Shown here piece after piece: positions 11,404-43,016 of a stretch of DNA of 64,000 nucleotides. The stretch comes from an uncultured Candidatus Saccharibacteria bacterium (GTDB lineage: Bacteria > Patescibacteriota > Minisyncoccia > Phycocordibacterales > PALSA-1337). The position numbers and the translations under genes are program-made. Below the pieces are notes generated by a model. The model saw only the letters and a program-made list of their open reading frames with translations, had not been told where the DNA came from and ran no database searches. Location: the NCBI GenBank assembly GCA_964495685.1, contig CAZBVQ010000001.1, positions 39,477 through 103,476 of the forward strand, given 5' to 3'. Every line of letters starts with the position of its first letter. Position 1 is the stretch's first letter.

Positions 11404-11429
11404 AAAAAGGGGGCCACAGCCCCTTTTTG
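11404..11429. terminator. bidirectional intrinsic terminator hairpin (AAAAAGGGGGCCACAGCCCCTTTTTG)
   Basis: GC stem flanked by an A-run and a T-run between convergent yidC and the 11443..12756 gene. Confidence 0.55.
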
Positions 11430-11442
11430 TTGTTAGTACTTG

Positions 11443-12756
11443 TTACTTCAGATCATACGACCATAATGACAGGTCGTTTTTGTTCATGAAGAAGATGAAG
11501 TCGTCTCGATCATCGAGGCCGAGGTTGTAGGCGTCTATAACACGATCTGAAGCGTCTACGATCGAAGAAATCAAGTGTACCTCGTTGGTTGACGCGTTGA
11601 CCTGCCATAGTTTGTCAACGAAAGAGGTGTCGCCACGATACCAATCATCGGGATATGTTCCTGGAATAGGTTGTGATGGGACGGCACAATAGACCACGTC
11701 CTTGTAGGTATTACCCCAAGCACATTTGTCTGCAAGGGTGCGAATGACGGCATCAGTCCCCTTTCGCTTGGTCACATCATAAATACTCGAGACAACATTG
11801 TCAGAACTTCCTGCTGCCGAAATGAACACCTTCTTGGCATCAGTGCTGACTTTGGTGCTCAGTCCAGGCAAAGGTCCAAGAATTTTCTTCCACACACCGG
11901 TTTTGGTGTCAACGAAATAAAGATACCCACGTTCACTGGCGGCACCCTTGGTGGTGATGGCGATGGTCTGGTCTTCGGGCCACTCAGCATTGACTTGGGT
12001 GAGTGGTGTGACGAACAGCTGGGTCGGGGATGAACCGTCGAACTTGAATATATAGCCGACCCCCACACCTTTCTCTGATAGAAGCATAAATACACGGTCT
12101 TTTTTGGGCGATACCGCATATGTCAGGATCGTGCTCGGTAGATTCTTGCCGCGCAGTTCGTAAGGGGTCAAGGAAGTGAGCGCTACCTGGGGTGTCGAGG
12201 TGCTTGCCTTGGGCATGATACGTGCACGGAGTTCGGCCCATATGCCAGAAATGGTATTGGCATCAGATATGCCGAAGGCCATGAATGAGGTGAGGTTCTT
12301 GTTCCACAAACTCTCGTACATTTTGGGCACAACGGTATTGGATATAGTTGTAATGTCGAGCGTATTGCCGCGGGCTTCATATACATTACCGCGACCGCGG
12401 TCGAGCCAACGGACGACAGTGGTGCTACTGGCGATCGGAGTCTTGACAGTGCCTGTAGTGCTTGCGCCATATCCAGAGACTGGAGTGTTACTGAGAAGAC
12501 GCAAAGCGGGAATCTTGAGTTGGGTACCGGTGGCGGTGGATGCACGCGTTGTGGTGGCGGGCTGAGTCGATGTTGAAGTGGCGCTTGATCGTGGGCCTCC
12601 CCTATCGAAGGGCGAGAAACCTCCCTGGTCAGGCGTCTCGGTGACCGGGGTATCTATACTTGTTGTATCACGCAAGAAAAACTGCCAGTATGCCAAAGCG
12701 ACGATGATGACGATGACGATGAATGCTATGAAATAGTGGAGGGTTTTGCGAGTCAT
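11443..12756 (-). CDS. hypothetical membrane-anchored protein with Ser/Thr-rich linker (last gene of the T4SS-like operon)
   Basis: N-terminal TM helix, low-complexity STSTQPATTTRASTATGT linker, beta-rich C-terminal region. Confidence 0.5.
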   Translation of the reverse strand: MTRKTLHYFIAFIVIVIIVALAYWQFFLRDTTSIDTPVTETPDQGGFSPFDRGGPRSSATSTSTQPATTTRASTATGTQLKIPALRLLSNTPVSGYGASTTGTVKTPIASSTTVVRWLDRGRGNVYEARGNTLDITTISNTVVPKMYESLWNKNLTSFMAFGISDANTISGIWAELRARIMPKASTSTPQVALTSLTPYELRGKNLPSTILTYAVSPKKDRVFMLLSEKGVGVGYIFKFDGSSPTQLFVTPLTQVNAEWPEDQTIAITTKGAASERGYLYFVDTKTGVWKKILGPLPGLSTKVSTDAKKVFISAAGSSDNVVSSIYDVTKRKGTDAVIRTLADKCAWGNTYKDVVYCAVPSQPIPGTYPDDWYRGDTSFVDKLWQVNASTNEVHLISSIVDASDRVIDAYNLGLDDRDDFIFFMNKNDLSLWSYDLK

Positions 12757-12761
12757 TATAT

Positions 12762-14087
12762 TTACTGTATTTTCAAACTTTTTAGCTTCTGCCTAGCCTC
12801 AGTTGCTTTTTGCACTAATTGTTGGCATAGGGCAGGGTCACTAACACTGCTCGAGCAACCATTAACTACGGTATTAATTTGATTCTGTGCATACCCAACG
12901 GCCTCATTTAAAGTTCTCGCATTGCTTGACTGGTACCACCAAGCAACTGGCCCCCATAGATCTTTGTCATTAATGACCACTTGTGTTGCGTAGGCAACCT
13001 GAGTGTTTATTTGCTCGAGCTTGTTTGAGTAGTTTGTATAATCTTCCAAGGACTTTAATTGATTCGGAGCTGCTCCGATCGCTATAAGGGCAGCACGTCT
13101 TGTCTGATATTCACTATTCAAATCAGTACTTAGTTGTTCAGGGGTTTTGTTTGCTATTGATCCAGTAGAAGGGTCACTGTCCAAAACTCTTTGATTTATA
13201 GCGGCTTTTGCAACAACCAAGAGAGCATTTGCTTGCTCGTCTCTTATTGCCGCATCCTGTGCCAGTATTTGAGTGGCAATACTCCGAGCGTCCGATCCCA
13301 ACCCAGACGACCGATTTGCAAGGGCTAGGCAGGGGTCTTTATATGGGGCGCCGGAATTTTGTTGTAATAGTAAAGGATCACTGACAGATATATTCGCCGT
13401 CAACTGATCACACAAAGATTTTTTTCGTTCTTCTAGTGTTGAAACGATTTGTTGGGATTTTGCCAAATCTTGTTTGGCTGATTCAACGCTTGTATGAAAT
13501 TCCGACATTGTCTTTGTAAGTTGTCCAAAAAAAGTAGACGCCGACGATGAGACACAACGACTATCCGTTACGGATAGTTCACGATTACTCGCACAGCGTA
13601 TATCTATCGGCGTTACCAATGTGGTCGGTATTTGCACTAGTCGCGGGTCAATCGTCCGCAGTATCAAATATGAACACAGTATAAGAACGAGTCCATAAAC
13701 TGCATTCTTAAGCTTTTCGAGCCCAGCGCTCTTTTGGTTGTAAGAATCTGAACTCATATATTCGAAGCCGCCCCAGACAATCATAAACACGGCCAATACG
13801 GCCGCCAATGCAATAACCAAATTGAATGCATACTGAACATAATTCTCGAAATTAATAGACGTCATCTGGGTGTTACCTCCACAGGTGATGGCCGGAGTTA
13901 CAACTTCTCCCCTCTCGTTCTGTACGGCCGCACTTTCGATACAAGGCAGGGGTTCCAAAAGTGTATACTCAACTTGCTTCTCTTGGGCGAACACAAACGG
14001 TGTCGACATTATGAGTACACCGACGAATAATGCCGTACAGATGACACTGAGTAGCCAGATATATTTTTTATTGAAAGTGTATGTCAT
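12762..14087 (-). CDS. VirB2/TrbC-like pilin domain protein with about 300-aa C-terminal extension
   Basis: Signal peptide, then two hydrophobic helices separated by a short charged loop (YAFNLVIALAAVLAVFMIVWGGFEYMSS ... NAVYGLVLILCSYLIL), as in TrbC/VirB2 pilins. Long coiled C-terminal region. Confidence 0.4.
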   Translation of the reverse strand: MTYTFNKKYIWLLSVICTALFVGVLIMSTPFVFAQEKQVEYTLLEPLPCIESAAVQNERGEVVTPAITCGGNTQMTSINFENYVQYAFNLVIALAAVLAVFMIVWGGFEYMSSDSYNQKSAGLEKLKNAVYGLVLILCSYLILRTIDPRLVQIPTTLVTPIDIRCASNRELSVTDSRCVSSSASTFFGQLTKTMSEFHTSVESAKQDLAKSQQIVSTLEERKKSLCDQLTANISVSDPLLLQQNSGAPYKDPCLALANRSSGLGSDARSIATQILAQDAAIRDEQANALLVVAKAAINQRVLDSDPSTGSIANKTPEQLSTDLNSEYQTRRAALIAIGAAPNQLKSLEDYTNYSNKLEQINTQVAYATQVVINDKDLWGPVAWWYQSSNARTLNEAVGYAQNQINTVVNGCSSSVSDPALCQQLVQKATEARQKLKSLKIQ

Positions 14088-14089
14088 AT

Positions 14090-15100
14090 CTAAAACGTAG
14101 TTGCATTAGTTTCTTTTTGGTTTGAAAAAATAACCGAAAACCCAGAAGTTGCCCCTTGCAGTATACGTTCTGTGCTTCCGATATTCAGACGAACCTGAGA
14201 GGTTCCAGAAGATCCTTCGGGTGCACGGAGGATAACAGATTTTTTTGATGATAGAGTGTCCCTCTTGAGATTGTTTATACCCCAATTCCATTCGGTTTCA
14301 GGAGTGTCCACAGCATTAAAACCAAACGGAACACCAAAGACGGTCACCTCTTTTTGTTGACCCACGTATACAGTATTGGTGATTGAACGATTGAATAATG
14401 GACCATACGTGGCATCATCAACGTAAAATCCAATAGAAGGTGTACCACTTTGAACCGATGCATACGCTACGGCGGAGGCGCTGTTGTCGCGGGGCCAAAC
14501 AGTGACCGATATGTCGTAAGGTCGTGGGACAACGTCTCCTGCTATCAGTACATATTGTTTGCCGTACCCAGACTGATCCTCAATAACACGACCATTCTTT
14601 TTCCATTGGTATACAAGAGACGATGGATCATATTCTATCCCTGCTGAATTTGCCACGTGCGCTATAGCGGCAATTTTAATAGTGTTTTGGTATACAGGAG
14701 AGAGTTTGCCTCGGAAGAAAGGGGGCGTGTATCCATCAGTCTCAAATACTAGATCGACAAAACCAGACCCTAAGGTGAAGGAATTTTTTATGACTGTGCC
14801 GTCCGTATTGACCGCGGTGACCTCTATTGACATTTTTTTGCCTAGAATCGGAGCGATAACCTCGAGCGATGTAGCACCTGTCGCACTGCGCACCACCTTA
14901 CCATCAACAACCCAAGTAACCTTTGCGGCATTGATATCAATAGTGTAACTACGTGCGGTAATGGTGACCGTCTGTCCTGGTACAGGATTGTCTGTCGACG
15001 GGGATAGCTCGAGGCCGCCTGTCACTGATATTTGGGCGTGGGCGGACGAAAATACAAAGAAATAAGACAGGAATACAACTAGAAATAGGCGCGATTTCAT
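14090..15100 (-). CDS. hypothetical secreted beta-rich protein
   Basis: Signal peptide MKSRLFLVVFLSYFFVFSSAHAQ when started at the internal ATG at 15100. Repetitive beta-strand (Ig-like) sequence. Confidence 0.5.
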   Translation of the reverse strand: MKSRLFLVVFLSYFFVFSSAHAQISVTGGLELSPSTDNPVPGQTVTITARSYTIDINAAKVTWVVDGKVVRSATGATSLEVIAPILGKKMSIEVTAVNTDGTVIKNSFTLGSGFVDLVFETDGYTPPFFRGKLSPVYQNTIKIAAIAHVANSAGIEYDPSSLVYQWKKNGRVIEDQSGYGKQYVLIAGDVVPRPYDISVTVWPRDNSASAVAYASVQSGTPSIGFYVDDATYGPLFNRSITNTVYVGQQKEVTVFGVPFGFNAVDTPETEWNWGINNLKRDTLSSKKSVILRAPEGSSGTSQVRLNIGSTERILQGATSGFSVIFSNQKETNATTF

Positions 15101-15158
15101 TGTCCATATTTTACCACGGAGCCAGAACGTAGTCCTCGTGGTATTCGGGGATAAATAA

Positions 15159-15626
15159 CTATCCTTGAGCTGGTAGGCCCCCGTTAGGAGCGCGCACTCC
15201 CGCCCCTTCCCCACCATTCAAGGGTTCTCTGGGTCGGGGTTCTCGGCGCCCATTGAAGTTGAGCATGGTTTTTGCTGAGCCAATCTGTTTTCCTTGTGAT
15301 AGTGGCTTGATCACAGAAACACCAGCTTTGTCCTCAATTCGAGTGATGAGTATTATGGCTATTATCCCGGCAGTTACTTCGATAGGTAATTCCTGCACGA
15401 CGGGTATAAGTGATGCAACCCAAGAAATAGCCATGGCGGCCAACTTTCTACCATTGAACAGGCCCAGGCCCTTCGTCCAACCATATAGGGCGAAGAATAT
15501 CCAAAACAATGAGGCCGTAATATCCTTTGCAAAAGGGATCAATCCTATCAGGTCAGCAATAAATGCAAGGGCGATCAGTATGACTACCATTGCCGTCCCT
15601 ATTCTATATTTCGGCTTGTTCACCAT
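15159..15626 (-). CDS. hypothetical small polytopic membrane protein
   Basis: 155 aa, about 3 TM helices, Gly/Pro-rich C-terminus. Lies between the VirB4-like ATPase and the secreted protein. Confidence 0.5.
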   Translation of the reverse strand: MVNKPKYRIGTAMVVILIALAFIADLIGLIPFAKDITASLFWIFFALYGWTKGLGLFNGRKLAAMAISWVASLIPVVQELPIEVTAGIIAIILITRIEDKAGVSVIKPLSQGKQIGSAKTMLNFNGRREPRPREPLNGGEGAGVRAPNGGLPAQG

Positions 15627-15641
15627 GCCGTTAGTATACCA

Positions 15642-17456
15642 CTATCCCGCCTGTTCCAGCTGTTTCTTTGCATCCTTGATGGCCAGTACCTGTGCAGGAT
15701 TGGTGGTGATGATCTGGTCTTCTGTATATGACCCGACGACCTTGATAGCCACGTGTTTGAGCCCTACGAAGAATATGCCCTCCCCTACATCAGATTCGAG
15801 CAAGAGATACTTCTCCTCGTCGGTTAGGTTGAATGTTTTCTGGATATGGTCGATGACTGTCGGAGATTGTTTGAGCAAGATCTGGATGGATGAGTTGGTC
15901 ACGATAGGCATACCATACGGAGAATTCAAGAAGTCATCCACGTCTTGTGTGATAGTCGAGAGGCCCAAGAAATATTTGCGACCACGCTTGGCTAGGCCGA
16001 ACAAGAATGAGGCGGTGTCCTCTGACTTCATCATCCACCACGCCTCATCGATGACCAAGAGGCGACGCTTCAAATTCTTGCGAATAGCGTTCCATATATA
16101 GTGAGTGACGATATACATGGCCACTGGCTTGAGCTCATCCTCCATGTCGCGGAGGGAGAAAACCACGAATTTCTTATTGATATCGACATTCGAGGGACGA
16201 TTGATGAAGCCGGCCCAAGTACCCTTGGTATATTTGGACAGACGTTGGACCAGAGAGTCGCCGCCTTCCATTCCTGCCAATACCAGCTCGAAGTCTGAGA
16301 GCAGTGGTGGCTCTACGGTGCGGAAATCGGCCTCAGGTGTAATATCCTTGAGAGCGTATGTCTCACTGATAGCACGATCGATGATGGCGTCCTCTTCTTG
16401 GGTCAGGCCACCAAGCATGATGCGGAAGAGACCGACGAGGTTGATGATGTTGGAGCGGAGGACGTCAGCTGCAGACTCATCTTCACGGGGAATCGGTAAG
16501 TCGAACGGGTTGATATGGTGTTCGGAGTTGAGCGAGATGTTGAAGTACTTCCCTCCTGTGGCCTCAGCCATGTACTCATATTCTTTTTCGGGGTCAATGA
16601 CGATGACGTCAGTATCGAACATGAGGGTGCGTAGAATCTCGAGCTTGGTCGTATATGATTTACCAGCACCAGCAGTAGCGAAGGTGACGGAGTTGTAGTT
16701 TTCGAGGGAGAAACGATCGAACAAGACAAGTGATGAATTGTGGCGGTTGATACCGTACAGGATACCCTTGTCTGATGTAAGGTCGAATGATACGAATGGA
16801 AATAGTGATGAGAGTGGCGAGGAATTGAGCTTGGAATGGACAGTGAGCTGGTCGTCGGCAATGGGAATAACTGATTTGAAGCCTTGTTCCTGCTGGAATA
16901 GAGCCGGTTTGACGTACACGAGCTTGGATTCAAGAATGGATTTGATTTCGGATTCAAGCTTATCGAGCTCACCTTCTGAGTCGGCAAACAAAGTGATGTA
17001 CACACCTACGTCGAAGAGGTGTTCTTGTGCCTGCATCAATTGGTCACGGAGCTGTTCGAGGTCTTGGTATGCAGTATCCAGCGCTGGATCACGGACGAGG
17101 CCCTTGTCTTCCCTGCGCGAGATCTGACTCTGGACTTCAGCCACCTTCTTCTGGAAATGGCGCAGAATCTTTGCCGTATCTACTGGGTGGATGAATATTG
17201 ATATGTTAAAAATTTTGTCGAGGTTGATGATGGGGGCAAACCAGCTCTCATCAAGGAAGCGCGGGTATGAAATAACGAATAGAGTGCGCCCCACCTTCTC
17301 GCCAAGATTGAGATCCTTGGGACTTATTTTGAGAGCTGATGGTGAAATGACGTCTTTGAGCTCCAAAACACCGGCCTGATATATTTCTTCCGGCAGAATA
17401 GAAACGATCGGGGATCGCTCATCTTTCTTGCCGAATAAAGTGCTTAAGAATGACAT
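15642..17456 (-). CDS. VirB4/TrbE/CagE-family T4SS ATPase, C-terminal ATPase part
   Basis: Walker A TFATAGAGKSYTTK, Walker B LLVIDEAWWMM and VirB4 signature blocks. Starts 1 nt after the stop of the upstream ORF (TAAcATG). Confidence 0.85.
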   Translation of the reverse strand: MSFLSTLFGKKDERSPIVSILPEEIYQAGVLELKDVISPSALKISPKDLNLGEKVGRTLFVISYPRFLDESWFAPIINLDKIFNISIFIHPVDTAKILRHFQKKVAEVQSQISRREDKGLVRDPALDTAYQDLEQLRDQLMQAQEHLFDVGVYITLFADSEGELDKLESEIKSILESKLVYVKPALFQQEQGFKSVIPIADDQLTVHSKLNSSPLSSLFPFVSFDLTSDKGILYGINRHNSSLVLFDRFSLENYNSVTFATAGAGKSYTTKLEILRTLMFDTDVIVIDPEKEYEYMAEATGGKYFNISLNSEHHINPFDLPIPREDESAADVLRSNIINLVGLFRIMLGGLTQEEDAIIDRAISETYALKDITPEADFRTVEPPLLSDFELVLAGMEGGDSLVQRLSKYTKGTWAGFINRPSNVDINKKFVVFSLRDMEDELKPVAMYIVTHYIWNAIRKNLKRRLLVIDEAWWMMKSEDTASFLFGLAKRGRKYFLGLSTITQDVDDFLNSPYGMPIVTNSSIQILLKQSPTVIDHIQKTFNLTDEEKYLLLESDVGEGIFFVGLKHVAIKVVGSYTEDQIITTNPAQVLAIKDAKKQLEQAG

Positions 17457-17457
17457 G

Positions 17458-18096
17458 TTAGGTTATTTGGATGGGCTTCTCTGTCTCTCCAGGGTTGAAC
17501 AGTTTGTAGAACAATTCTACCACTTCTTCGGTGCCGAGCTCAGCGGCTCTAATGCCACAACGCACGAGACCTTGTTCGACTACTGCTACGCGCTGCTCGA
17601 GCTGGCTTCGATATTCCTGGAATTGGGCATCTGCTGTAGTATTTCCCGTCTTGGCGCTCTTGCTCGGAAGGATACTTGAGATGGGGTTTTTGCTAGCAGT
17701 TATGAGTGGCGGATCATATGGCACGACGACGAAGAAGCTCTTAGACATGATGTTGGTACTCTCGACGAATGTCTTAATGAACTCGATATATTCGCGGACC
17801 TGTATTTTCATAAGCTCAGTCGCCTGCTCTTTGTAGCGATCCTCGAGAAGTGCAATATAGGGGCGGATGTCGAGTTTCTTGGACTGTACGAATATCTGGA
17901 TCGAGAAATCGAGCGAATTCACGAAATTTTGGAACTGCATCAAGATAGAACTCTGCTCATCTTGTGATTTGAGGGCGAAGTTGAGGGATGACACGAGCAC
18001 GATGGCGCGCATACCACCATTTTTAAGGATGATGATTCCATCACGGATTTCCTGGATGGGGATGAAATCTTGGGTTGTTTTTGATGGGGCGGCCAT
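17458..18096 (-). CDS. VirB4-family N-terminal domain encoded as a separate ORF
   Basis: TQDFIPIQEIRDGIIILKNGGMRAIVLVSSLNFALKS matches the N-terminal domain of PrgJ/TcpF-type VirB4. 212 aa + 604 aa together make the usual ~800-aa VirB4. Confidence 0.6.
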   Translation of the reverse strand: MAAPSKTTQDFIPIQEIRDGIIILKNGGMRAIVLVSSLNFALKSQDEQSSILMQFQNFVNSLDFSIQIFVQSKKLDIRPYIALLEDRYKEQATELMKIQVREYIEFIKTFVESTNIMSKSFFVVVPYDPPLITASKNPISSILPSKSAKTGNTTADAQFQEYRSQLEQRVAVVEQGLVRCGIRAAELGTEEVVELFYKLFNPGETEKPIQIT

Positions 18097-18533
18097 TAGC
18101 GTTGATTTTTATTGGAATACATACTTTCCTTAATATCGAGACTCCAGCTCAGGTCTTTGAGTTTGCTGTCAGATATTTTGGGCACCATGATCGAGGCGTA
18201 GTTCCTGGCGTCCTTGACGGCAGTATCAGTGTTGCGCGGTCTGGGCTTCTCGACCTTCCTCCATATATAGAGTTTGTTGCCGAGGTAATACTTGAAAGCG
18301 GCCTCGACGGTGTTGACGAACGGTTGGCGTGGATTGATTTTGTAGAAAGCAAACGCGGCTGAAATGGCCATAATGAGGATGATGGGCACGATCGCCAAGG
18401 TGACACTGTTCAAGAATACGTAGACAATGAAAGAGAGACCTCCCCCACCGGCGAGGTAAATGAATTGTTTGAGTGTCAGCGGGCCGAATATCTTGTCTTC
18501 AACCTCAATAAATTGGGGAACTTGGAATCGCAT
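18096..18533 (-). CDS. PrgI/VirB3-like small membrane protein
   Basis: MRFQVPQFIEVEDKIFGPLTLKQFIYLAGG followed by two TM helices. Same pattern and position (just upstream of VirB4) as PrgI-family proteins. Confidence 0.55.
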   Translation of the reverse strand: MRFQVPQFIEVEDKIFGPLTLKQFIYLAGGGGLSFIVYVFLNSVTLAIVPIILIMAISAAFAFYKINPRQPFVNTVEAAFKYYLGNKLYIWRKVEKPRPRNTDTAVKDARNYASIMVPKISDSKLKDLSWSLDIKESMYSNKNQR

Positions 18534-18597
18534 CGTACTCTATTATATCCTATAGCGTCGAGTCCGGATATGTGGAAGGTGTCAGTGGGCCGTACGT

Positions 18598-19323
18598 CTA
18601 GAAGCTCTCTCTATAAGGATCTGGTGTTCCTGCGGGACGGGGTTTGGGCTGTTGGGCCGGTGTCGGACGTGTAGGAGATACGGTTTTGCTTGCTTGGCCC
18701 ACAGGATTGCTCAGCAGATAGTCCACCAGAGGTTCGACGTGACTCTCCTCTTGTTTGGGTTGGGCTGGCAACGTACGTGGCACAGGATTCGAACTATTAG
18801 TCGAGCTCGTAGGTAGATTTGCAGGAACCTGATCCGTAGGTGTAGGTGCGCTTGTCGGTGGATTCTCGAGTCCAGCCAGGATAGAGTTGCGGTCAGCTGG
18901 AGTGACCGGCTTGCGTTCTGGCTCGGTGGCGGGCTTGTCGATGGAGAAGCCGCCGACGCGTTCGAGGGAGGAGATGGCAGAGCTTGATTCTTCCTGGGTA
19001 TTTCTTATAGTTTCAGATTTGAGTAAGTTGCGGATAGGATCAAATATTACCTTGTTGATATCCTGACTGAGAGCCAACGTTATTTTCGAGGAAATACCCA
19101 GTCTTTGAGATACGTTTGTAACAAAGTCTGCAGAAGAGTGCAGATTAAGTAGAACAAGACCTATCTCATCCACGAGTTCACCTATTTGATCAATATGGAG
19201 GTTGTATTTCTCACTGAGAACTTCAATAGAATCTTGTATTTCAGGAGAGCTAATAGTAGCTTTCAGTTGTTCTGGAAGTTTGTCGAAAGCATCCTGTATT
19301 TCTTGTGCGTTATAAGGTCTCAT
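18598..19323 (-). CDS. hypothetical protein with Pro/Thr-rich C-terminal tail
   Basis: 241 aa, globular N-terminus, disordered PT-rich C-terminus. Start overlaps the stop of the VirB6-like gene. Confidence 0.45.
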   Translation of the reverse strand: MRPYNAQEIQDAFDKLPEQLKATISSPEIQDSIEVLSEKYNLHIDQIGELVDEIGLVLLNLHSSADFVTNVSQRLGISSKITLALSQDINKVIFDPIRNLLKSETIRNTQEESSSAISSLERVGGFSIDKPATEPERKPVTPADRNSILAGLENPPTSAPTPTDQVPANLPTSSTNSSNPVPRTLPAQPKQEESHVEPLVDYLLSNPVGQASKTVSPTRPTPAQQPKPRPAGTPDPYRESF

Positions 19324-21413
19324 TATTTTTTATCTTCTTTCTTTTCACCTCCACCTCCTCCGCCCACACTGTCTTTAATACCACCTACAAGCTTTTCTCG
19401 GTCTTCTTCCTTCTCCTTTTCTTTGTTTTTCTTCCTTATTTGTTCCTCTGTAGTTCTCCTATTGTCTTCATTTTGCGCACGTCGTTTTCGGAGATCTGCC
19501 ACATGTTTTTCAAGTCGATCTATATCCGCATCTGCCTGAGCTGTTGCTAGAGGGACAGAAGAAATCGTAGTTTTGGTGGCAGTGAGTTGCTTAATTTGAT
19601 CCTCGATCTCTTGAGCATATCCTGGACCTGCGATGGCGGTGTAACGACCAGACTTCTCTCTGAGTTCTCTAATTTGTTCATCTATAGTGTTTACCTGATC
19701 GTCTTTTTGTTTTTGTAGCTGTTCTGCTGTTTTTTGTGATTGCTCTTTGATCAAGCGTATTGAATTGAGCGAGACGTTGATATCGGCATCCAATTGACGT
19801 TCTCGGAACTTGGAAACGTCGACTACGGCCTTGAGGTCTTCTAAATCTTTATCCTTCTGTGCTTTATCTTTATATTTCTTTGCTACCTCGAGATTGGCAC
19901 GATCCTTCATCATTAAGGTAAAGACAGAAGACTTACCGAGGTTTTGAACCATGTTGTTCTGGTAACGCTTCCCACGCTCCTTGTCCGAATCAGTACCTAC
20001 TTGCTTGTGTAGTGCCTCTATATCCTTCTTGCGTTGCTTCAGCGTGCCGTCATAACTGCCATTCTTTTCACCAAAGCCTGACCCGCTAACTTTCGAAAGA
20101 CGTTTCGATATTGCGAGCCCCAAGTTTGGATTATTTGCATAGATTCGACGCATGGTTGCGGAATCGTTAAGTTTATTTGCCCCCGCTCCGAGCGTATTTC
20201 TTCCTGTAAAGCTACCCACCTTCTTCCATAATATATCCGCCCCCATCTTCTTGCCATCTAATAACCCACCCGTAACTGCGCCGAGTTTGATGGCGGCCAA
20301 TAAGGGGATATTGAGCATCACAATAATAAGCGCAGCATTGATGGCAAAGGAGATAAATTCGGTTGGTACGAGAGCATTTGTTTGCGCTCCTTTCCAGAGA
20401 CTTCCATAGGCCCCTGTATTGAATAAGTTGCTATTTGAAATAATACGAAGAGCGACATACATGAAGAGCAGGTATGCAGGCATAAAGATGAGCTGGTTTT
20501 TGAACACCTTCCACCACTCATCAGCATACTCTTTGAGTTGAGGAATAATGGCAGCCGCAAACCATATCGGAGAGAACGCCAGCAATATGAGTAGTAATAC
20601 GAGACGTATTACGAATGCAAGGGATGCAAACAAAAAGCTTAGTCCGGCTGTTATCATGATGACGACACCAGTGGTACCAATAAGAATTATACGGAAAGGG
20701 GTTGAAATTCCAGCTGAAGGGTCACTCATCCCTAGATTTTTTGAGTTGAAAGTTGTTTGAAGCTGGAGTGACTGCATGAATACAGCCGAAAGACCACCAT
20801 CACTAAACAGCGTGTTGACTATTTGTGGCAGGGTTCCTACCGAGGCCGCATCCCTACTATTTATTAGCTTGCCGATATCTGGTTGTCCAGGAGTTATGGC
20901 GTTATATAGCTGTAGAGAGACTATGTTTGAGGCATCGATACACAGCCCAGTTATGAAGAAACTAAAATTGATGAGCACACCAGCGACGACGATGTTCTTT
21001 ATGGTTTGGCCGAGTTTGGCATCTTTGCCCAGAATCATACGTATGGATGCATACATAAGTCCAAATATAATGAACATTCCCGAAATATCGCGGATTGCTT
21101 TCCATACGTCATATATTGCAGGGGTACTGTTGACGAAGTCTCTGATGTGCATCGTCAAGTTGATTGACACGTTCAAGAGTGTTCCGGTGAGTGCTACGAA
21201 CCATGAACTTACTGAGAGCACCACGTTCATGAATGAAGCCAAGATTTTCATCAAGAAATCCCACGCATTCGCAATTCCGAAGAGACTTTGTGCATGGGCG
21301 GAATGTGTTGTCAGTGCCAATACAGCCATCACCAATACGCCTATCGTCAGTAATTTGCCGGCGGTGCCGAATCGGTGGAGGTCTCTTATTTTTTGTATCA
21401 GTCTAGATGACAT
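19323..21413 (-). CDS. VirB6/TrbL-like polytopic membrane protein with charged coiled-coil C-terminal tail
   Basis: Signal sequence, at least 6 TM helices in the first ~400 aa, then a K/E-rich coiled coil ending in a GGGGGG-EKKEDKK tail. Size and topology fit VirB6/TrbL. Confidence 0.5.
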   Translation of the reverse strand: MSSRLIQKIRDLHRFGTAGKLLTIGVLVMAVLALTTHSAHAQSLFGIANAWDFLMKILASFMNVVLSVSSWFVALTGTLLNVSINLTMHIRDFVNSTPAIYDVWKAIRDISGMFIIFGLMYASIRMILGKDAKLGQTIKNIVVAGVLINFSFFITGLCIDASNIVSLQLYNAITPGQPDIGKLINSRDAASVGTLPQIVNTLFSDGGLSAVFMQSLQLQTTFNSKNLGMSDPSAGISTPFRIILIGTTGVVIMITAGLSFLFASLAFVIRLVLLLILLAFSPIWFAAAIIPQLKEYADEWWKVFKNQLIFMPAYLLFMYVALRIISNSNLFNTGAYGSLWKGAQTNALVPTEFISFAINAALIIVMLNIPLLAAIKLGAVTGGLLDGKKMGADILWKKVGSFTGRNTLGAGANKLNDSATMRRIYANNPNLGLAISKRLSKVSGSGFGEKNGSYDGTLKQRKKDIEALHKQVGTDSDKERGKRYQNNMVQNLGKSSVFTLMMKDRANLEVAKKYKDKAQKDKDLEDLKAVVDVSKFRERQLDADINVSLNSIRLIKEQSQKTAEQLQKQKDDQVNTIDEQIRELREKSGRYTAIAGPGYAQEIEDQIKQLTATKTTISSVPLATAQADADIDRLEKHVADLRKRRAQNEDNRRTTEEQIRKKNKEKEKEEDREKLVGGIKDSVGGGGGGEKKEDKK

Positions 21414-21419
21414 GTAGTA

Positions 21420-23192
21420 TTAGTGAATTCCTGAAAGTAACGGGTTCTGGAATCGGTGATACGGTAGTGCTCCGTCGAAGCCGATCTGATATGGCATGGC
21501 ATTACATATACCTTGGAACATATCGGCATCTTTGTTGAGCATTACGACCAAGGTGTCAGCAGTCTTCTTCCCTGCTCGCGCATCCTCTGAGCTCTCGATA
21601 CCAGCTTGTGCGCCACGGAGAGTCGCATCGATGGTCGTATCGACACGATTGAATCCTTGACTGATGTCGTTATCGGTTACGCCGCGTATCTGAGTGATAC
21701 TGGTAGATGCGGTCGCACGATACCCACCGAGTGCAGTGGCGACCGCATCTTTCTTGTACGTTGTAGATGCGATCTGGGGATCGATATTCTGCGCGAGTAC
21801 TTGATCAATGCTATAGACCAATCGTTCTGCATATGTGCGCTGGAATGAAGATATGTTGTGGTTCGCTAATATCTTGGTGGTGAAGCATGCGCGAGCGGTG
21901 GTGTATTTGGTACGAGTCGTGTTGAGTGATGCGAGCGTTTCGTCATAGGTTGTGATGTTGCTTTGTCCGAGGTTGATGATGGAGTTTGAGCTACTTAATG
22001 TTCGATCACGAGTCGATCGTGCGTCGAAGCTGTTCTGGTTGTAAGATTCTTCACTGAGTTGAGTCAGGTATGATTTCGAATTGCCGCCTGTACCAGAGCC
22101 GCGACCACTAAGTGCGGCGAGACCTTGAGTAAACATCTGGTTGACGAGCGCGCCAGTGATGGCGTCGATGCTATCACTGATTGTTTTGACCAATACGAGT
22201 TTATCAGTAGGAACATTGAGCTGGCGCTGGAGCGACCCGGCTATCATGGAGCCGGGAGTTTGTGTCTCACAGCTCTTGTAAGCTACCACCCCATTCTTTT
22301 TAACTTTCTTGATACTGGTAGCTTTGTTCAAATCAGTTTGACCCGTAACTACAGTGTGTTCACCAAACTCGTGAAGCTGCTGTTCTTGGGCGACACTTAG
22401 ACCAAGCTCACCACCATCAAACTGGCCACTTGTATAACCAGTGGTTACGTCAGTACATTTCTGCCATGACAAGAATCCTTGTCCCCTGTTGAGATCAGCA
22501 TTTACCGAGGCTTTCTTTTCGGCAATTTTACTTTGCAGGTCTAAGTCGGCCATAAGATATGCTCCAATAGGATTGTTTTGTGGTTCCGTCGAATAAGCAA
22601 CGAAGCCCCACCATCCTCCTTGTGAAAAATCACCATCTATGAAATTACCTAGAGCGACTCCGTCACGCGACCCACTCAATGTGATGCCACTATTTTGCCC
22701 CGCAGTATTTACAGCGTTACGGGTATTGTTGATGACCTTACCCAAAGTACAAGTATATCGTTTGTTATACGACGACATATCTACTTGATTTATTGCCAAG
22801 TTGAGTCGTATATCGAAACTGAACGGCGAACACAGCTGCGACAGTGCCCCAGTCTTGTCTATGAGCTCACCAGTAATTTGGTCGCCCACATCAAGGAAGA
22901 ACCCTTCGGGATTGGTTAGGAATGCTGGGCTACCCTCGAATCCTGTATTGATCCAATTGACCACACTTGCAGTCATGCGCTGGATCAACTGGTTGGCGAC
23001 CATGACGGCCAGTCTGTTGCCGACGAATTCTTTCCAGTTGTCCATGATGCAGTACACGTCGAAGAGTCCGCACGTAGTCGGAACGGCTAGTGCCTGAGCG
23101 CGCTTGGCCGGCAGGAACGAGAACGAAGATACGATCATCGTAGTGATGAGGAGGATGATCAGTGCGCCGCGTGAAAAAGTGTTCGATGTCAT
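21420..23192 (-). CDS. hypothetical large secreted protein
   Basis: Signal-anchor when started at the internal ATG at 23192 (MTSNTFSRGALIILLITTMIVSSFSF). About 590 aa, no recognisable catalytic motif. Confidence 0.5.
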   Translation of the reverse strand: MTSNTFSRGALIILLITTMIVSSFSFLPAKRAQALAVPTTCGLFDVYCIMDNWKEFVGNRLAVMVANQLIQRMTASVVNWINTGFEGSPAFLTNPEGFFLDVGDQITGELIDKTGALSQLCSPFSFDIRLNLAINQVDMSSYNKRYTCTLGKVINNTRNAVNTAGQNSGITLSGSRDGVALGNFIDGDFSQGGWWGFVAYSTEPQNNPIGAYLMADLDLQSKIAEKKASVNADLNRGQGFLSWQKCTDVTTGYTSGQFDGGELGLSVAQEQQLHEFGEHTVVTGQTDLNKATSIKKVKKNGVVAYKSCETQTPGSMIAGSLQRQLNVPTDKLVLVKTISDSIDAITGALVNQMFTQGLAALSGRGSGTGGNSKSYLTQLSEESYNQNSFDARSTRDRTLSSSNSIINLGQSNITTYDETLASLNTTRTKYTTARACFTTKILANHNISSFQRTYAERLVYSIDQVLAQNIDPQIASTTYKKDAVATALGGYRATASTSITQIRGVTDNDISQGFNRVDTTIDATLRGAQAGIESSEDARAGKKTADTLVVMLNKDADMFQGICNAMPYQIGFDGALPYHRFQNPLLSGIH

Positions 23193-23193
23193 A

Positions 23194-24072
23194 TTATTTG
23201 ACCATGCTAAAAATAATGGCAGGCTCGGTGGAACTGAACTCGAGCCCTTCTTGTGAAAATGCAAATTTCAGATCCAGCAACGCGTCTCTCATCTGGCCGA
23301 GGGATTTTTCGTAAACAGCCAATGCTGCAATGCTCTGGAGGGGGTCGCTAAAAACTTTGGTCATGCCACGTGACGCGAATGACATGGCGCTCATGCTGTT
23401 GACGAGATTGGTATGGAAGCCGGCAAGGGATTTGGGTACCTCTGTCGCAAGAGTGCTACTCAACATGCGGTCGTATGCAGCCGCGATCATCTCAACCTCT
23501 TTTATCTTGGACTGGTCCTCTTCGTCGAGCGCTTGCAATGCTACGGTAGCAGCATCGTGGGCGGGCATATTGGCAGAAAAAATAGTACCCACTGCGTTGG
23601 CGTATACCCTATCGCTCGATGCGCCACTGTTTTGGGAGATACGAATCTCGCGGACATCATATACTCGTGCTTGAGGGGCGGCATCGACAATGTTGGTTGT
23701 CGTCTGATCGACGAGAGCCTTGATTGCTTGAGGGTCTTCGTTCAAATTATTTTGTTTGAGGTACATATATTGTTCGAAGAATTTCTTGCCGAACTGGCCA
23801 GTCAGTGTCTCTGGTTCGGAGATGATGGTTTTTGCGGAAGAAGCACTGACTGCAATGGAGCTCGAACCAGTAGTGAGGAATTGTTTGCGCCAGTCACCTG
23901 ATTCAGGGACAACGGATCCACCAGAGATGACGGGAGATACGGTGCTGGTCTTTTTGGGGGTCATTCTCGAGAACAAAGAATTGCCGTACGCGGCATATCC
24001 AGCGACAGCAACTCCGACTATGCATACAATGAGGACGATGAGCGTCTGTTTGTGCCCACGGGATAGCGACAT
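23194..24072 (-). CDS. hypothetical membrane-anchored protein (first gene of operon)
   Basis: N-terminal TM helix. Stop abuts the next gene. Confidence 0.5.
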   Translation of the reverse strand: MSLSRGHKQTLIVLIVCIVGVAVAGYAAYGNSLFSRMTPKKTSTVSPVISGGSVVPESGDWRKQFLTTGSSSIAVSASSAKTIISEPETLTGQFGKKFFEQYMYLKQNNLNEDPQAIKALVDQTTTNIVDAAPQARVYDVREIRISQNSGASSDRVYANAVGTIFSANMPAHDAATVALQALDEEDQSKIKEVEMIAAAYDRMLSSTLATEVPKSLAGFHTNLVNSMSAMSFASRGMTKVFSDPLQSIAALAVYEKSLGQMRDALLDLKFAFSQEGLEFSSTEPAIIFSMVK

Positions 24073-24167
24073 ACGACATAATTATATAGTAATAACGCCG
24101 TAATTGCTGGATTTTCTGTGGACAATACGATATCGACTTGGTGCAAATCGTGATACCATAGAAGCAC

Positions 24168-24515
24168 ATGACAGAACTTCATCATATGCGTAAATATATA
24201 TTTATACTTTTTCTGTTGACATTCATATCGGCGCCCGTGGTTACTGCTCGTGCGGCGGTGCCTATCCCATTCGGAGGATTGGTGACTACGATGCAGCCAT
24301 GCGACGAAGGTTTGTTGGTCTATGTGCTCACGCCAGTAACAGGAGTCATCCCCTTCATGTGGCTCTGGGGAGAACTGCCCTTCCTCATGTACATCCCCCC
24401 GCATACAGGTCAAGAGTTGCTCGGGTATGCTGCTACGGTCCCAGTGGTCTGTACAATTGGGGGCTTCCCTTATGGAGCGGGCTTACCGATCATCATGCAC
24501 GGATCAAGTCTCTAG
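24168..24515 (+). CDS. small secreted hydrophobic protein, possible VirB2-like pilin
   Basis: Signal peptide (cleavage after ARA), then two hydrophobic segments; about 90 aa mature. Divergent from the T4SS-like operon. Confidence 0.3.
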   Translation: MTELHHMRKYIFILFLLTFISAPVVTARAAVPIPFGGLVTTMQPCDEGLLVYVLTPVTGVIPFMWLWGELPFLMYIPPHTGQELLGYAATVPVVCTIGGFPYGAGLPIIMHGSSL

Positions 24516-27420: not shown

Positions 27421-27665
27421 GAGAGGTAGTGTACCAGATTCCGGGCTTTGAAGATAATATTTTGCAACAAAAGTTGACAGACAGTCTATGTTTGTAGTTA
27501 TTCACATTATCGATTGACAATAGATTTTGAGCTGATACCCTTGGTAGGTACTCTGATTTAGGGGTACCTAGATGTGGCTTTGTTAAGCCATTTATTTATT
27601 GATAGACTCGACACAGAGCGATGGCGGGGATACTACGGATGAATTGCCAGATAGTAAAAAATGTT

Positions 27666-30275: not shown

Positions 30276-30414
30276 GGAGGGCACTGTATCAGGGTCGTAT
30301 GAAGAAATAATGAAGAATCGATGAACATTCGCTGAAGATGTGTTCGCGTGGTCTAGTAATACACACAACCGCCTCGAGTGAGGCGGTTGTGTGTGCGGAT
30401 GAAATACGGTCGGG

Positions 30415-42317: not shown

Positions 42318-43016
42318 TTGAACAGATATACTTTGTTCGATATGTATTCTAGGAATTATAAAAATAAAGCCATATCGCTTCGCGAACAGGGGTACTCTCT
42401 TGGATATATTGCCGAGAAGCTTGATGTTGCAAAAAGTACGCTAAGTGTATGGCTAAAGAGCGTTACATTTTTTCCGAATGAAATAACAAGGAACTCCGTA
42501 GCTCATGGTCAAAAACAGGCAGTTGCGACAAAACGTTCTGACAAAGCCATTTCTCTTGCCCGCGCGTATAAATACGCACAAGAATCAGTTGGCGTCTTGT
42601 CAAAAAGAGATAGGTTTCTCGTTGGAATTGGGATTTATATCGGGGAAGGTGGTAGGGCCTTTAATAGTACTAGAATAGCAAATTCTGATCCGCGTACCAT
42701 TGGGTTTTGCCTGTCGTGGCTCAAAGAATGTTTTGGTTTGATGAATAAAAATATTCGTATTAGAGTTCATATATACCCTGACAATAATGAGAAAAGAGTC
42801 TTAACATATTGGATGAAAGAACTTGGTTTGGGGAAGAAATCATTTTATCCCTGTTTTATTGATAGGAGAGTCGGTAAGAGATCGAAAAAAGTGAATGTAT
42901 TACCGTACGGGACTGCCCATATGAGTGTGGTCAGCAATGGTAACAAAGATTTTGGTGTCTTGTTACATCGTAAAATCCTTGCTACGATTGACCGTATTCT
43001 CACTATGCGGGGTTAG
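42318..43016 (+). CDS. HTH-domain protein with possible LAGLIDADG-like endonuclease fold
   Basis: N-terminal HTH (GYSLGYIAEKLDVAKSTLSVWLK). Central FLVGIGIYIGEGG weakly resembles a LAGLIDADG motif. The last 10 nt overlap the 5' end of tRNA-Gly(UCC). Confidence 0.4.
   Translation: MNRYTLFDMYSRNYKNKAISLREQGYSLGYIAEKLDVAKSTLSVWLKSVTFFPNEITRNSVAHGQKQAVATKRSDKAISLARAYKYAQESVGVLSKRDRFLVGIGIYIGEGGRAFNSTRIANSDPRTIGFCLSWLKECFGLMNKNIRIRVHIYPDNNEKRVLTYWMKELGLGKKSFYPCFIDRRVGKRSKKVNVLPYGTAHMSVVSNGNKDFGVLLHRKILATIDRILTMRG

What the first reader, a model, noticed from the sequence alone, without database searches (positions are those of the whole stretch)
11443..24515. Twelve-kb single-strand operon resembling a monoderm-type type IV secretion system, mostly made of uncharacterised proteins
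Eleven co-directional, tightly packed genes encode:
- a PrgI/VirB3-like protein
- a VirB4 ATPase
- a VirB6/TrbL-like polytopic protein with an unusual K/E-rich tail ending in GGGGGG
- a VirB2/TrbC-like pilin fused to a ~300-aa extension
- six secreted or membrane proteins with no recognisable domains, several with Pro/Thr-rich linkers.

No relaxase, coupling protein (VirD4) or VirB1 lytic transglycosylase is seen in the window. A standalone PilB ATPase lies elsewhere (1-959). The architecture suggests a contact-dependent secretion or uptake machine rather than a conjugative element, as has been proposed for episymbiotic small-genome bacteria. Most components here are unassigned.
Basis: partly seen in the sequence, partly recalled or inferred. 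Interest (0 to 1): 0.7.

Follow-up and report, generated by a model that had tools for sequence, protein, structure and literature searches.

The report
Patescibacterial chromosomal type IV secretion locus
This is the chromosomal type IV secretion gene cluster that ultra-small, host-dependent Patescibacteria (CPR) carry next to their replication origin; it was described in 2023-2025 papers, so the finding is real and correctly read but not new.

Summary
Eleven tightly packed minus-strand genes (24072 down to 11443) encode a monoderm-type type IV secretion system (T4SS). Recognisable parts:
- PrgI/VirB3.
- A VirB4 ATPase split into a TrsD-like N-terminal protein and a 604-aa ATPase with intact Walker motifs.
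- One VirB2-like pilin with a ~280-aa extension.

Six further proteins remain unassigned.

No relaxase or VirD4 was found in the window. The flanks are housekeeping genes (PcrA, RsmA; YidC, DnaA, DnaN). The whole arrangement is syntenic in about 40 Paceibacteria species genomes, so it is vertically inherited and not a mobile element.

Exactly this system is already published for Patescibacteria (PMC12102498). That paper reports the MPF-FATA-like VirB4, TrsD, PrgI, VirB6 and VirB2-like pilin, the lack of a relaxase, and the position near dnaA. The Saccharibacteria counterpart is essential for epibiotic growth (PMC10633639).

- The cytoplasmic engine evolves more slowly than DnaA, while the envelope parts evolve far faster than housekeeping genes.
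- The long, hypervariable pilin is the rule in this clade.
- The 590-aa secreted protein upstream of VirB6 represents a very large family with no Pfam model.

The function remains inferred.

The parts
23194..24072 (-). g03: 292-aa protein with one N-terminal TM anchor and an ectodomain. Function unassigned. First gene of the cluster.
   Evidence: One TM-like segment at aa 10-28. No Pfam or NCBIfam hit. 9 of 39 orthologues carry bacterial TSP3 (extracellular Ca-binding) repeats. hhalign gives no similarity to the VirB8-like PrgL or PrgD. Only 32% identical in a genome whose VirB4 is 96% identical. TATAAT at 24081-24086 lies 8 nt before the ATG.
21420..23192 (-). g04: 590-aa Sec-signal protein directly upstream of VirB6. 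It has a conserved Cys-containing N-terminal region, a small beta domain and a long C-terminal three-helix bundle. Unassigned; a candidate stalk/tip partner of VirB6 by position only.
   Evidence: AF2 model: mean pLDDT 67. Beta domain 243-311 and helices 389-565 are confident; aa 40-240 are conserved but low confidence. Foldseek against PDB returns only generic helical bundles. hhalign to TrwJ/VirB5 is negative. The DUF4141 hit covers only the signal region and is below cutoff. The family has 5439 clusters at 50% identity with E<=1e-3, 4535 of them with E<=1e-10. All named homologues are 'hypothetical' or misnamed.
19323..21413 (-). g05: extended VirB6-like polytopic channel subunit (aa 1-420) with a variable charged coiled-coil tail (aa 421-696).
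18598..19323 (-). g06: 241-aa protein with no TM segment or signal peptide. It has an N-terminal helical domain, a Pro-rich linker and a conserved C-terminal DPYRE motif. Unassigned; possibly an adaptor or a substrate.
   Evidence: No hydrophobic segment. D235, Y237, R238 and E239 are invariant or nearly so across 42 orthologues. No Pfam or PDB-profile hits.
18096..18533 (-). g07: PrgI/VirB3-like membrane protein.
   Evidence: Pfam PF12666 PrgI, E 3.9e-12, 47 bits against a cutoff of 27. Two TM segments. Present in all 80 related loci. A -10-like box ending 4-11 nt before the start codon is found in 57 of 73 loci, an exact TATAAT in many; in the window it is at 18542-18547.
17458..18096 (-). 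g08: TrsD/TraD-like protein, which is the N-terminal domain of VirB4 encoded as a separate gene.
   Evidence: NCBIfam: VirB4_plasma positions 101-233 (E 4.7e-12), CD1110 positions 1-114, TrsD/TraD NF041427 (E 2e-6). Precomputed PF26593 TraC-like. Separate from g09 in every related locus where both genes were found, never fused, with variable spacing.
15642..17456 (-). g09: VirB4 ATPase (CD1110/MPF-FATA-like family), the motor of the system.
   Evidence: NF045971: 371.6 bits against a cutoff of 325, covering model positions 185-732. Pfam P-loop_TraG, E 1.3e-26. 24% identity to pCF10 PrgJ, E 4e-40. P-loop at nt 16656-16679 and Walker B at nt 16041-16061. 78-96% identical across the 80 best species-level relatives and more conserved than DnaA in every genome compared.
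15159..15626 (-). g10: 155-aa small polytopic membrane protein with a basic Gly/Pro-rich tail. Unassigned.
   Evidence: Conserved motifs ADL..LIPFVG, IP.VQELP and R.EDKTG. A small ORF with at least two TM segments occupies this position in at least 46 of 61 loci. hhalign finds no similarity to PrgF or to the pilin core.
14090..15100 (-). g11: 336-aa Sec-signal protein, probably made of Ig-like beta-sandwich domains. Unassigned surface component.
   Evidence: Signal peptide ending AHA-Q. Weak Ig-type hits in orthologues: Ig_3, BiPBP_C, TIG, Big_2, MG4. Weak PDB-profile hits to Ig-fold proteins. tblastn hits in 76 of 80 loci.
12762..14087 (-). g12: VirB2-like T4SS pilin. Signal peptide, conserved two-TM core (aa 81-158) and a hypervariable C-terminal extension of about 280 aa containing Cys residues.
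   Evidence: PF18895 T4SS_pilin: 38.2 bits against a cutoff of 26.6. NF045849 mycoplasma ICE pilin-like: 23 bits, below its cutoff of 40. Core conserved, extension not. It is the only pilin-core ORF in the window. Relatives usually have one, with a median stop-to-stop ORF of 349 aa, range 130-640. Database homologues are 269-580 aa and carry only PF18895; the closest non-identical one aligns over 46% of the query.
11443..12756 (-). g13: 437-aa protein with an N-terminal TM anchor, a Ser/Thr-rich linker and a probable beta-propeller ectodomain. Unassigned. Last gene of the cluster.
   Evidence: TM at aa 10-28. Weak profile hits to the TolB propeller, E 0.003, and to DPPIV_N in 2 orthologues. 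Conserved Cys/Trp motifs. A hairpin terminator at 11405-11428 is shared with the convergent yidC.

Best explanation
This is the chromosomal, vertically inherited type IV secretion system of a Paceibacteria-class patescibacterium. It is a derivative of the monoderm (MPF-FATA) mating-pair-formation machinery that has lost, or never had locally, the DNA-processing module.

**Shown here**
- A split VirB4 motor (TrsD-like N-domain plus the ATPase), a PrgI/VirB3 membrane partner, an extended VirB6 channel subunit and a single long VirB2-like pilin are co-transcribed with six lineage-specific proteins. Five of the six are membrane-anchored or carry a Sec signal.
- The locus sits between rsmA/pcrA and yidC/dnaA in every related genome examined.

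**Inferred**
- VirB4, docked by VirB3 and the TrsD-like protein to a VirB6 platform, drives extraction and polymerisation of the pilin into a filament or conduit across the single membrane and wall.
- The secreted g04, the Ig-like g11, the propeller g13 and g03 form or decorate the extracellular part and contact the host cell.
- The machine mediates a contact-dependent exchange with the host that the episymbiont needs: protein export, or uptake of host material. It does not mediate conjugation.
For: **Component identities:**

**Split VirB4:** separate genes in every related locus where both were found, never fused. There is a TrsD precedent in pGO1-type systems (PMC12102498).

**Host lineage and breadth:** more than 572 species-level relatives, all from Patescibacteria MAGs.

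**Synteny:** the order PcrA-RsmA-g03..g13-YidC-DnaA is conserved in about 40 loci with 10-kb flanks. There is no GC anomaly and no adjacent integrase.

**No DNA-processing module:** no relaxase or VirD4 in the window.

**Two-tier evolution.** Against locus L003:
- Engine: VirB4 96%, TrsD-like 88%, PrgI 79%.
- Housekeeping: DnaA 89%, YidC 73%, PcrA 72%, RsmA 64%.
- Envelope and accessory parts: g03 32%, g04 35%, pilin 35%, g06 39%.

This is the pattern expected of an essential motor coupled to a host-facing surface.

**Literature:** the same architecture and origin-proximal location are reported for Patescibacteria (PMC12102498). The T4SS genes SEML1_0006-0019 are essential for epibiotic growth of Southlakia, whereas comEC is not (PMC10633639; PMC12857230).
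Against: - No substrate, effector or direction of transport can be read from the sequence.
- No VirB8-like or VirB1-like component was found inside the cluster.
- g04's role as a VirB5/IcmX-like partner rests only on gene position. Sequence and fold comparisons were negative.
- A pilin carrying a ~280-aa extension may not polymerise at all and could be only a membrane anchor.
- VirD4 or a relaxase could be encoded elsewhere in the ~700-kb genome, which I could not scan. T4CP homologues far from virB4 are common in Patescibacteria (PMC12102498).
- Essentiality is shown only for Saccharibacteria, a different class.
Confidence: 0.8

Rival explanations
1. DNA-uptake machine. The T4SS imports environmental or host DNA, as ComB does in Helicobacter or Ced in Sulfolobales, to feed a nucleotide-auxotrophic cell or for transformation.
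For: No relaxase or T4CP is needed for uptake, and none is present. The ATPase gives weak CedB/CedD hits (31.9 and 16 bits). A ComM-like Mg-chelatase-family ATPase (28746-30368), PcrA and RuvB lie nearby. In class ABY1 the T4SS loci co-localise with comF, recG and radA (PMC12102498).
Against: The CedB score is far below its cutoff of 700. The neighbouring DNA-metabolism genes are ordinary origin-region housekeeping genes conserved in synteny. In Southlakia, competence needs ComEC and comEC is dispensable, while the T4SS is essential (PMC10633639, PMC12857230).
Confidence: 0.1
2. Functional conjugation system whose relaxase, oriT and coupling protein are encoded elsewhere in the genome.
For: VirB4 belongs to a family defined on conjugative elements (CD1110). 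T4CP genes are often distant from virB4, and 5,713 VirD4 homologues exist in Patescibacteria genomes (PMC12102498).
Against: Relaxases were found in only 103 of 3,035 Patescibacteria genomes (PMC12102498). The locus is fixed next to dnaA, with housekeeping flanks, in all relatives examined and shows no mobile-element hallmarks. The T4CP homologue in Southlakia is not essential, whereas the T4SS is (PMC12102498).
Confidence: 0.06
3. Adhesion or pilus-only apparatus. The VirB4/VirB3/VirB6 core only assembles a decorated VirB2-type filament used to bind the host, with no substrate translocation.
For: The single pilin has a hypervariable extension that is probably surface-exposed, as expected of an adhesin. 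The accessory proteins look like surface-binding modules: Ig-like, propeller, and TSP3 repeats in orthologues. There is no T4CP to recruit substrates.
Against: Type IV pili already provide adhesion in Patescibacteria (PMC10633639, PMC11623550), and a PilB gene is in this window. The VirB6-type channel subunit is retained and conserved in its TM core. T4CP-less T4SSs that secrete proteins exist, such as Ptl and Brucella VirB (PMC12102498).
Confidence: 0.1
4. Decaying remnant of an integrated conjugative element, with VirB4 broken by a frameshift.
For: VirB4 is in two ORFs in different frames, 1 nt apart.
Against: The split is present in every related locus where both genes were found, with variable spacing, and corresponds to the known TrsD arrangement (PMC12102498). 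The ATPase motifs are intact. VirB4 is more conserved than DnaA. All 11 ORFs are intact and syntenic.
Confidence: 0.01

Closest known systems
Patescibacteria-clade T4SS (Quinonero-Coronel et al. 2025, PMC12102498; Southlakia epibionticum SEML1_0006-0019, Wang et al. 2023, PMC10633639)
   Same: An MPF-FATA-like VirB4 with a separate TrsD-like gene, PrgI/VirB3, VirB6 and a VirB2-like pilin next to virB4. No relaxase. Chromosomal location beside dnaA, dnaN and ksgA (rsmA), as reported for Paceibacteria. Patescibacterial host.
   Different: This locus has one long pilin rather than the array of 2-11 short, divergent pilins typical of Saccharimonadia and Microgenomatia. It has no peptidase or lysozyme directly downstream of virB4. 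Six conserved accessory genes (g03, g04, g06, g10, g11, g13) are not assigned in those papers. Essentiality has not been tested in this class.
Gram-positive conjugative T4SS, MPF-FATA: pCF10 Prg/Pcf and pGO1/pSK41 Trs
   Same: VirB4 of the CD1110 family (24% identity to PrgJ). PrgI. A VirB6-type polytopic protein. The TrsD-plus-ATPase split as in pGO1. No outer-membrane core components. A VirB2-like pilin is now also claimed for pCF10, as PrgF (bioRxiv 10.64898/2025.12.18.695078).
   Different: No PcfC/VirD4, PcfG relaxase, PrgK hydrolase or VirB8-like PrgL/PrgD was detectable. The locus is not on a plasmid or ICE. The pilin is about 440 aa against 75 aa for PrgF and shows no significant similarity to it.
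R388 Trw / Agrobacterium VirB T4SS (MPF-T) stalk, and the Legionella DotA-IcmX protochannel
   Different: No VirB7, VirB9, VirB10 or VirB11. g04 shows no detectable similarity to TrwJ/VirB5. g05 carries a ~280-aa charged tail (an 'extended VirB6').
T4SS-related DNA-uptake systems (H. pylori ComB; archaeal Ced)
   Same: They work without a relaxase or coupling protein, are chromosomal, and are driven by a VirB4/HerA-type ATPase.
   Different: CedB and CedD profile scores are far below cutoff. ComB-type VirB7-10 are absent. The genetic evidence in Saccharibacteria separates competence from the T4SS (PMC10633639).

Membership tests
Type IV secretion system (superfamily) | VirB4-family ATPase with intact nucleotide-binding motifs | tested here: met
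   NF045971: 371.6 bits against a cutoff of 325. P-loop ATAGAGKS and Walker B LLVIDEA are present.
Type IV secretion system (superfamily) | VirB3-like membrane partner next to VirB4 | tested here: met
   PF12666 PrgI: 47 bits against a cutoff of 27. The gene lies immediately upstream of the TrsD-like and VirB4 genes.
Type IV secretion system (superfamily) | VirB6-like polytopic channel subunit | tested here: met
Monoderm (MPF-FATA) T4SS | VirB8-like (NTF2-fold) bitopic protein such as PrgL, PrgD or TraM | tested here: inconclusive
   hhalign of the g03 profile against PrgL and PrgD is negative, and no Pfam hits were found. No structure was predicted for g03, g11 or g13, so a fold-level VirB8 analogue is not excluded. 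VirB8 is rarely detectable in Patescibacteria (PMC12102498).
Monoderm (MPF-FATA) T4SS | VirB1-like cell-wall hydrolase in the cluster | tested here: not met
   None of the 11 proteins has a hydrolase domain, and tblastn with PrgK is negative. An M23/LysM peptidase lies 3.5 kb upstream at 27621-28751. It may substitute, but it is not shown to be linked.
Conjugative T4SS / ICE | Relaxase (MOB family) with oriT | tested here: not met
   No relaxase domain in any scanned ORF of the 64-kb window. tblastn with PcfG is negative. The rest of the genome is not available.
Conjugative T4SS / ICE | VirD4/TcpA-type coupling protein | tested here: not met
   No T4CP domain in the window's ORFs of 250 aa or more. 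tblastn with PcfC is negative. The rest of the genome was not tested.
Conjugative T4SS / ICE | Location on a mobile element (integrase at the border, variable insertion site, atypical composition) | tested here: not met
   The housekeeping flanks are identical in about 40 species. GC of 0.46-0.49 matches the neighbours. The nearest recombinases are 12 and 20 kb away.
Patescibacteria-clade T4SS (PMC12102498) | Separate TrsD-like gene associated with an MPF-FATA-like VirB4 | tested here: met
   g08 matches TrsD/TraD and the VirB4 N-terminal region. It is separate from the ATPase gene in every related locus where both were found. No VirB4 phylogeny was built here.
Patescibacteria-clade T4SS (PMC12102498) | VirB2-like pilin encoded near virB4 | tested here: met
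   PF18895 above cutoff in g12, 1.5 kb downstream of virB4. Homologues are named 'pilin' by NCBI.
Patescibacteria-clade T4SS (PMC12102498) | Patescibacterial genome, with the locus near dnaA, dnaN and ksgA (Paceibacteria pattern) | tested here: met
   All 80 best loci are Patescibacteria, Parcubacteria or Paceibacterota MAGs. DnaA, DnaN and YidC are identified by Pfam. The rsmA/ksgA and pcrA assignments rest on reading the translations and on conserved synteny.
Ced / ComB DNA-import systems | CedB-type or ComB-type component set | tested here: not met
   CedB scores 31.9 bits against a cutoff of 700, and CedD 16 bits against 600. No VirB7-10 homologues were found.

The most novel reading that the evidence does not exclude
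The machine may work as an uptake or exchange conduit built around a decorated pilus.

- The sole pilin would have a flagellin-like design: a conserved two-helix polymerisation core plus a hypervariable surface extension. Whole pilin ORFs in related loci range from about 130 to 640 aa. The extension would determine host specificity.
- The very large unannotated g04 family would form the VirB5/IcmX-like stalk on the VirB6 platform.
- The system would draw host-derived macromolecules or metabolites into the auxotrophic episymbiont, rather than exporting effectors.

The evidence neither supports nor excludes the direction of transport. The role proposed for g04 rests on gene position only.
Probability: 0.12. 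Interest if true: 0.85.

Novelty: already known. Interest (0 to 1): 0.3.

Why it matters
Patescibacteria make up a large share of bacterial diversity, and most appear to live on other cells. Their T4SS is one of the few machines shown to be essential for that lifestyle, in Saccharibacteria. Its substrate, its direction of transport and most of its structural parts are unknown.

This locus adds no new kind of system. It is a clean Paceibacteria example in which the conserved engine and the fast-evolving envelope parts, probably host-facing, can be told apart. It also names concrete candidates for the missing extracellular components: g04, g11, g13, g03, the long pilin, and the cytoplasmic g06 with its DPYRE tail. 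If cultivated Paceibacteria-host pairs become tractable, these are the genes to delete, tag or image.

Tried and rejected
**Profile searches of the unassigned genes against PDB sequences.** Ortholog profiles of g03, g04, g05, g06, g11 and g13 gave nothing significant. g13 gave only weak TolB propeller hits and g11 weak Ig-fold hits.

**g04**
- The AF2 model was only partly confident.
- Foldseek against PDB returned generic helical bundles.
- The VirB5 hypothesis has no support from hhalign against TrwJ.
- The DUF4141 hit in orthologues covers only the signal-peptide region and is below cutoff, so I rejected it as an annotation.

**g03 as a VirB8 analogue.** hhalign against PrgL and PrgD was negative.

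**g10 as PrgF or a second pilin.** hhalign was negative.

**g12 against TrwL/VirB2 and PrgF.** No significant similarity by hhalign. The pilin call rests on Pfam PF18895.

- The afdb50 fold library was unavailable.

**PF19590.** This accession is precomputed on several g05 homologues. It is absent from the current Pfam copy, so I could not name it here.

**The GGGGGG tail as a feature.** Rejected, because it is present in only 5 of 46 orthologues.

**The + strand ORF 24168-24515 as part of the system.** Rejected, because it is found in 2 of 80 loci and lies in a junction that varies from 11 nt to 1.7 kb.

**Frameshifted or pseudogenised VirB4.** Rejected.

Full report
**What is in the sequence**

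Between 24072 and 11443 the minus strand carries eleven ORFs separated by -1 to 64 nt. The cluster ends at a hairpin terminator (11405-11428) shared with the convergent yidC gene.

Public gene calls on contigs with identical proteins give the same boundaries for the seven genes covered: 292, 590, 696, 241, 145, 212 and 604 aa.

That ORF is found in only 2 of 80 related loci. The spacer lies in a junction that varies from 11 nt to 1.7 kb between genomes. It is not part of the conserved cluster.

**Recognisable components**

- **g07 (18096-18533)** is a PrgI/VirB3 protein. Pfam PF12666 scores 47 bits against a cutoff of 27.
- **g09 (15642-17456)** is a VirB4 ATPase.
  - NCBIfam NF045971 (CD1110 family) scores 371.6 bits against a cutoff of 325, covering model positions 185-732.
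  - It is 24% identical to pCF10 PrgJ.
  - The P-loop and Walker B motifs are intact.
- **g08 (17458-18096)** supplies the missing N-terminal 180 residues of VirB4.
  - It matches the N-terminal regions of the VirB4 models and the TrsD/TraD family.
  - The two genes are in different frames, 1 nt apart.
  - The split is present in every related locus where both genes were found, never fused, with variable spacing.
  - It is therefore the known pGO1-type TrsD arrangement, not a frameshift.
- **g12 (12762-14087)** carries a T4SS_pilin domain, PF18895, 38.2 bits against a cutoff of 26.6, at aa 87-144.
- **g05 (19323-21413)** has no direct Pfam hit but is well supported as VirB6-like.
  - It has eight TM-like segments.
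  - TrbL/VirB6 hits appear in 7 of 46 orthologues and lie close to the curated cutoff in one homologue.
  - An AF2 model of aa 1-420 reaches pLDDT 80.6.
  - Its top Foldseek matches are TrwI/VirB6 chains.
- Its C-terminal ~280 residues are a variable charged coiled coil. g05 is an 'extended VirB6' in the sense of PMC12857230.

**Unassigned components**

- **g04** (590 aa, Sec signal)
  - The N-terminal region is strongly conserved and contains Cys residues, but AF2 models it poorly.
  - A small beta domain and an 80-A-class three-helix bundle are modelled confidently.
  - Fold and profile searches gave nothing specific.
  - The family is very large, with 4535 clusters at 50% identity at E<=1e-10, and is unannotated.
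- **g03** is membrane-anchored. Some orthologues carry extracellular TSP3 repeats. It shows no similarity to VirB8-like PrgL or PrgD.
- **g11** looks like a secreted chain of Ig-like domains.
- **g13** looks like a membrane-anchored beta-propeller.
- **g10** is a small polytopic protein. Its position is conserved in at least 46 of 61 loci, though its sequence diverges quickly.
- **g06** has no TM segment or signal peptide. After a Pro-rich linker it ends in a nearly invariant DPYRE motif.

**Context**

The flanks are housekeeping genes:
- On one side, PcrA and RsmA (read from the translations).
- On the other, YidC, DnaA, DnaN and a class A PBP.

The cluster therefore sits beside the replication origin. 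The remaining large ORFs of the window contain no relaxase, VirD4 or integrase next to the cluster. The GC content matches the neighbours.

A scan of one genome per species found more than 572 relatives of the VirB4, and the best 80 are all patescibacterial MAGs. In the roughly 40 loci with full 10-kb flanks, the order PcrA-RsmA-g03...g13-YidC-DnaA is the same. This is a vertically inherited chromosomal locus, not a mobile element.

**Rates of evolution**

| Compared with L003 | Identity |
|---|---|
| VirB4 | 96% |
| TrsD-like | 88% |
| PrgI | 79% |
| DnaA | 89% |
| YidC | 73% |
| PcrA | 72% |
| RsmA | 64% |
| g03 | 32% |
| g04 | 35% |
| Pilin | 35% |
| g06 | 39% |

VirB4 is more conserved than DnaA in every genome compared. 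The pilin splits into a conserved core (aa 81-158) and an extension that cannot be aligned between close relatives. It is the only pilin-core ORF in the window. Relatives usually carry just one, and it is usually long, with a median stop-to-stop ORF of 349 aa.

A strongly constrained motor coupled to fast-evolving envelope and accessory parts fits an essential machine whose outer face meets a variable partner.

**Mechanism**

- **Shown:** the component set and its conservation.
- **Inferred:**
  - VirB4, with its separate N-domain and VirB3, docks on a VirB6 platform.
  - It drives assembly of a VirB2-type filament or conduit through the monoderm envelope.
  - g04, g11, g13 and g03 build or decorate the extracellular part.
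  - The system mediates a contact-dependent exchange with the host rather than conjugation.

Direction of transport and cargo are unknown.

**Rival readings**
- DNA uptake of the ComB or Ced type.
- Conjugation with distant relaxase and T4CP genes.
- A pilus-only adhesin.
- A decayed ICE.

None of the first three is fully excluded, but each is less likely; the reasons are given with each rival. The decayed-ICE reading is refuted by conservation.

**Comparison with what is known**

The system is already described. PMC12102498 reports, for 2,407 patescibacterial assemblies:
- A monophyletic VirB4 clade nested in MPF-FATA.
- TrsD, PrgI/VirB3, VirB6 and VirB2-like pilins next to virB4.
- Near-absence of relaxases, with T4CP genes far from virB4.
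- In Paceibacteria, a location next to dnaA, dnaN and ksgA.

PMC10633639 showed that the Saccharibacteria locus SEML1_0006-0019 is essential for epibiotic growth, and PMC12857230 reviews it. A 2025 preprint (10.64898/2025.12.18.695078) argues that Gram-positive T4SSs also have VirB2-like pilins. If so, the pilin here may be ancestral rather than co-opted.

Four points were not found in those papers:
- The two-tier evolutionary pattern.
- The long hypervariable pilin as the sole pilin in this clade.
- The size of the unannotated g04 family.
- The conserved accessory set.

**Verdict**

This is a real, correctly interpreted and already known system. Interest is modest (0.3). It lies in the unassigned accessory proteins and the open question of function, not in the existence of the locus.

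Noticed in passing
window 24081-24086, 18542-18547, 15633-15638, 15108-15113 (minus strand): -10-like boxes (TATAAT, TATAAT, TGgTATACT, TGgTAAAAT) end 6-8 nt before the start codons of g03, g07, g10 and g11. Three of these four genes are the only ones in the cluster preceded by a gap of 15 nt or more; g03 is the first gene. This suggests leaderless sub-operons g03-06, g07-09, g10 and g11-13. For the PrgI gene, a -10-like box ending 4-11 nt before the start codon is present in 57 of 73 related loci.
   Followed up: partly
window 42000-64000: GC drops from about 0.47-0.51 to about 0.39-0.46. After tRNA-Gly(tcc) at 43007-43078 comes a large serine recombinase (44031-45386). The region also holds an unusual build-up of eight Peripla_BP_6 solute-binding proteins, two branched-chain-type ABC permeases and three TrmB-family regulators. 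It may be an integrated island or a lineage-specific transporter expansion in a small genome.
   Followed up: no
window 27621-28751 (+): A secreted LysM plus M23 peptidase lies 3.5 kb upstream of the cluster. PMC12102498 notes that VirB1-type hits in Patescibacteria often carry M23 and LysM domains, so it is a candidate wall-remodelling partner. Its synteny with the cluster was not checked, because it lies beyond the fetched flanks.
   Followed up: no
window 24073-24511: The rsmA-g03 junction is a variable spot. In relatives it ranges from 11-90 nt with no gene to 1-1.7 kb with an inserted ORF of 260-540 aa on either strand. The window has a 115-aa + strand ORF (24168-24515) with a signal-peptide-like N-terminus and no family hit.
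   Followed up: partly
window 18601-18621 (C-terminus of ORF 18598-19323): A nearly invariant C-terminal DPYRE(S/P)(F/I) motif follows a poorly conserved Pro-rich linker, in a protein with no TM segment or signal peptide, in the middle of the T4SS operon. It looks like a short docking or secretion-signal peptide. Its partner is unknown.
   Followed up: partly
window 28746-30368 (-), 25330-27420 (-), 1618-2655 (+): A Mg-chelatase/ComM-like AAA+ protein, a PcrA/UvrD-type helicase (read from the translation) and RuvB lie near the cluster. They are probably ordinary origin-region housekeeping genes. They are worth noting because ABY1-class T4SS loci co-localise with competence and recombination genes (PMC12102498).
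   Followed up: no
window 30787-32244 (-): A 485-aa ORF with no Pfam hit at E<=0.001. It was not examined further.
   Followed up: no
L003-L080, orthologues of g03: 9 of 39 orthologues of the first cluster gene carry bacterial thrombospondin type 3 (Ca-binding) repeats. The window copy lacks them. This fits a variable extracellular stalk.
   Followed up: no
window 12762-14087 versus NCBIfam NF045849 and NF045975: The pilin and the TrsD-like protein g08 give their best NCBIfam matches to mycoplasma ICE families: the Mbov_0395 pilin-like protein (below cutoff) and the Mbov_0397 VirB4. The ATPase g09 gives its second-best match, after CD1110, to Mbov_0397. This hints that a VirB2-like pilin is shared with Tenericutes MPF-FATA systems rather than borrowed from diderm systems.
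   Followed up: no
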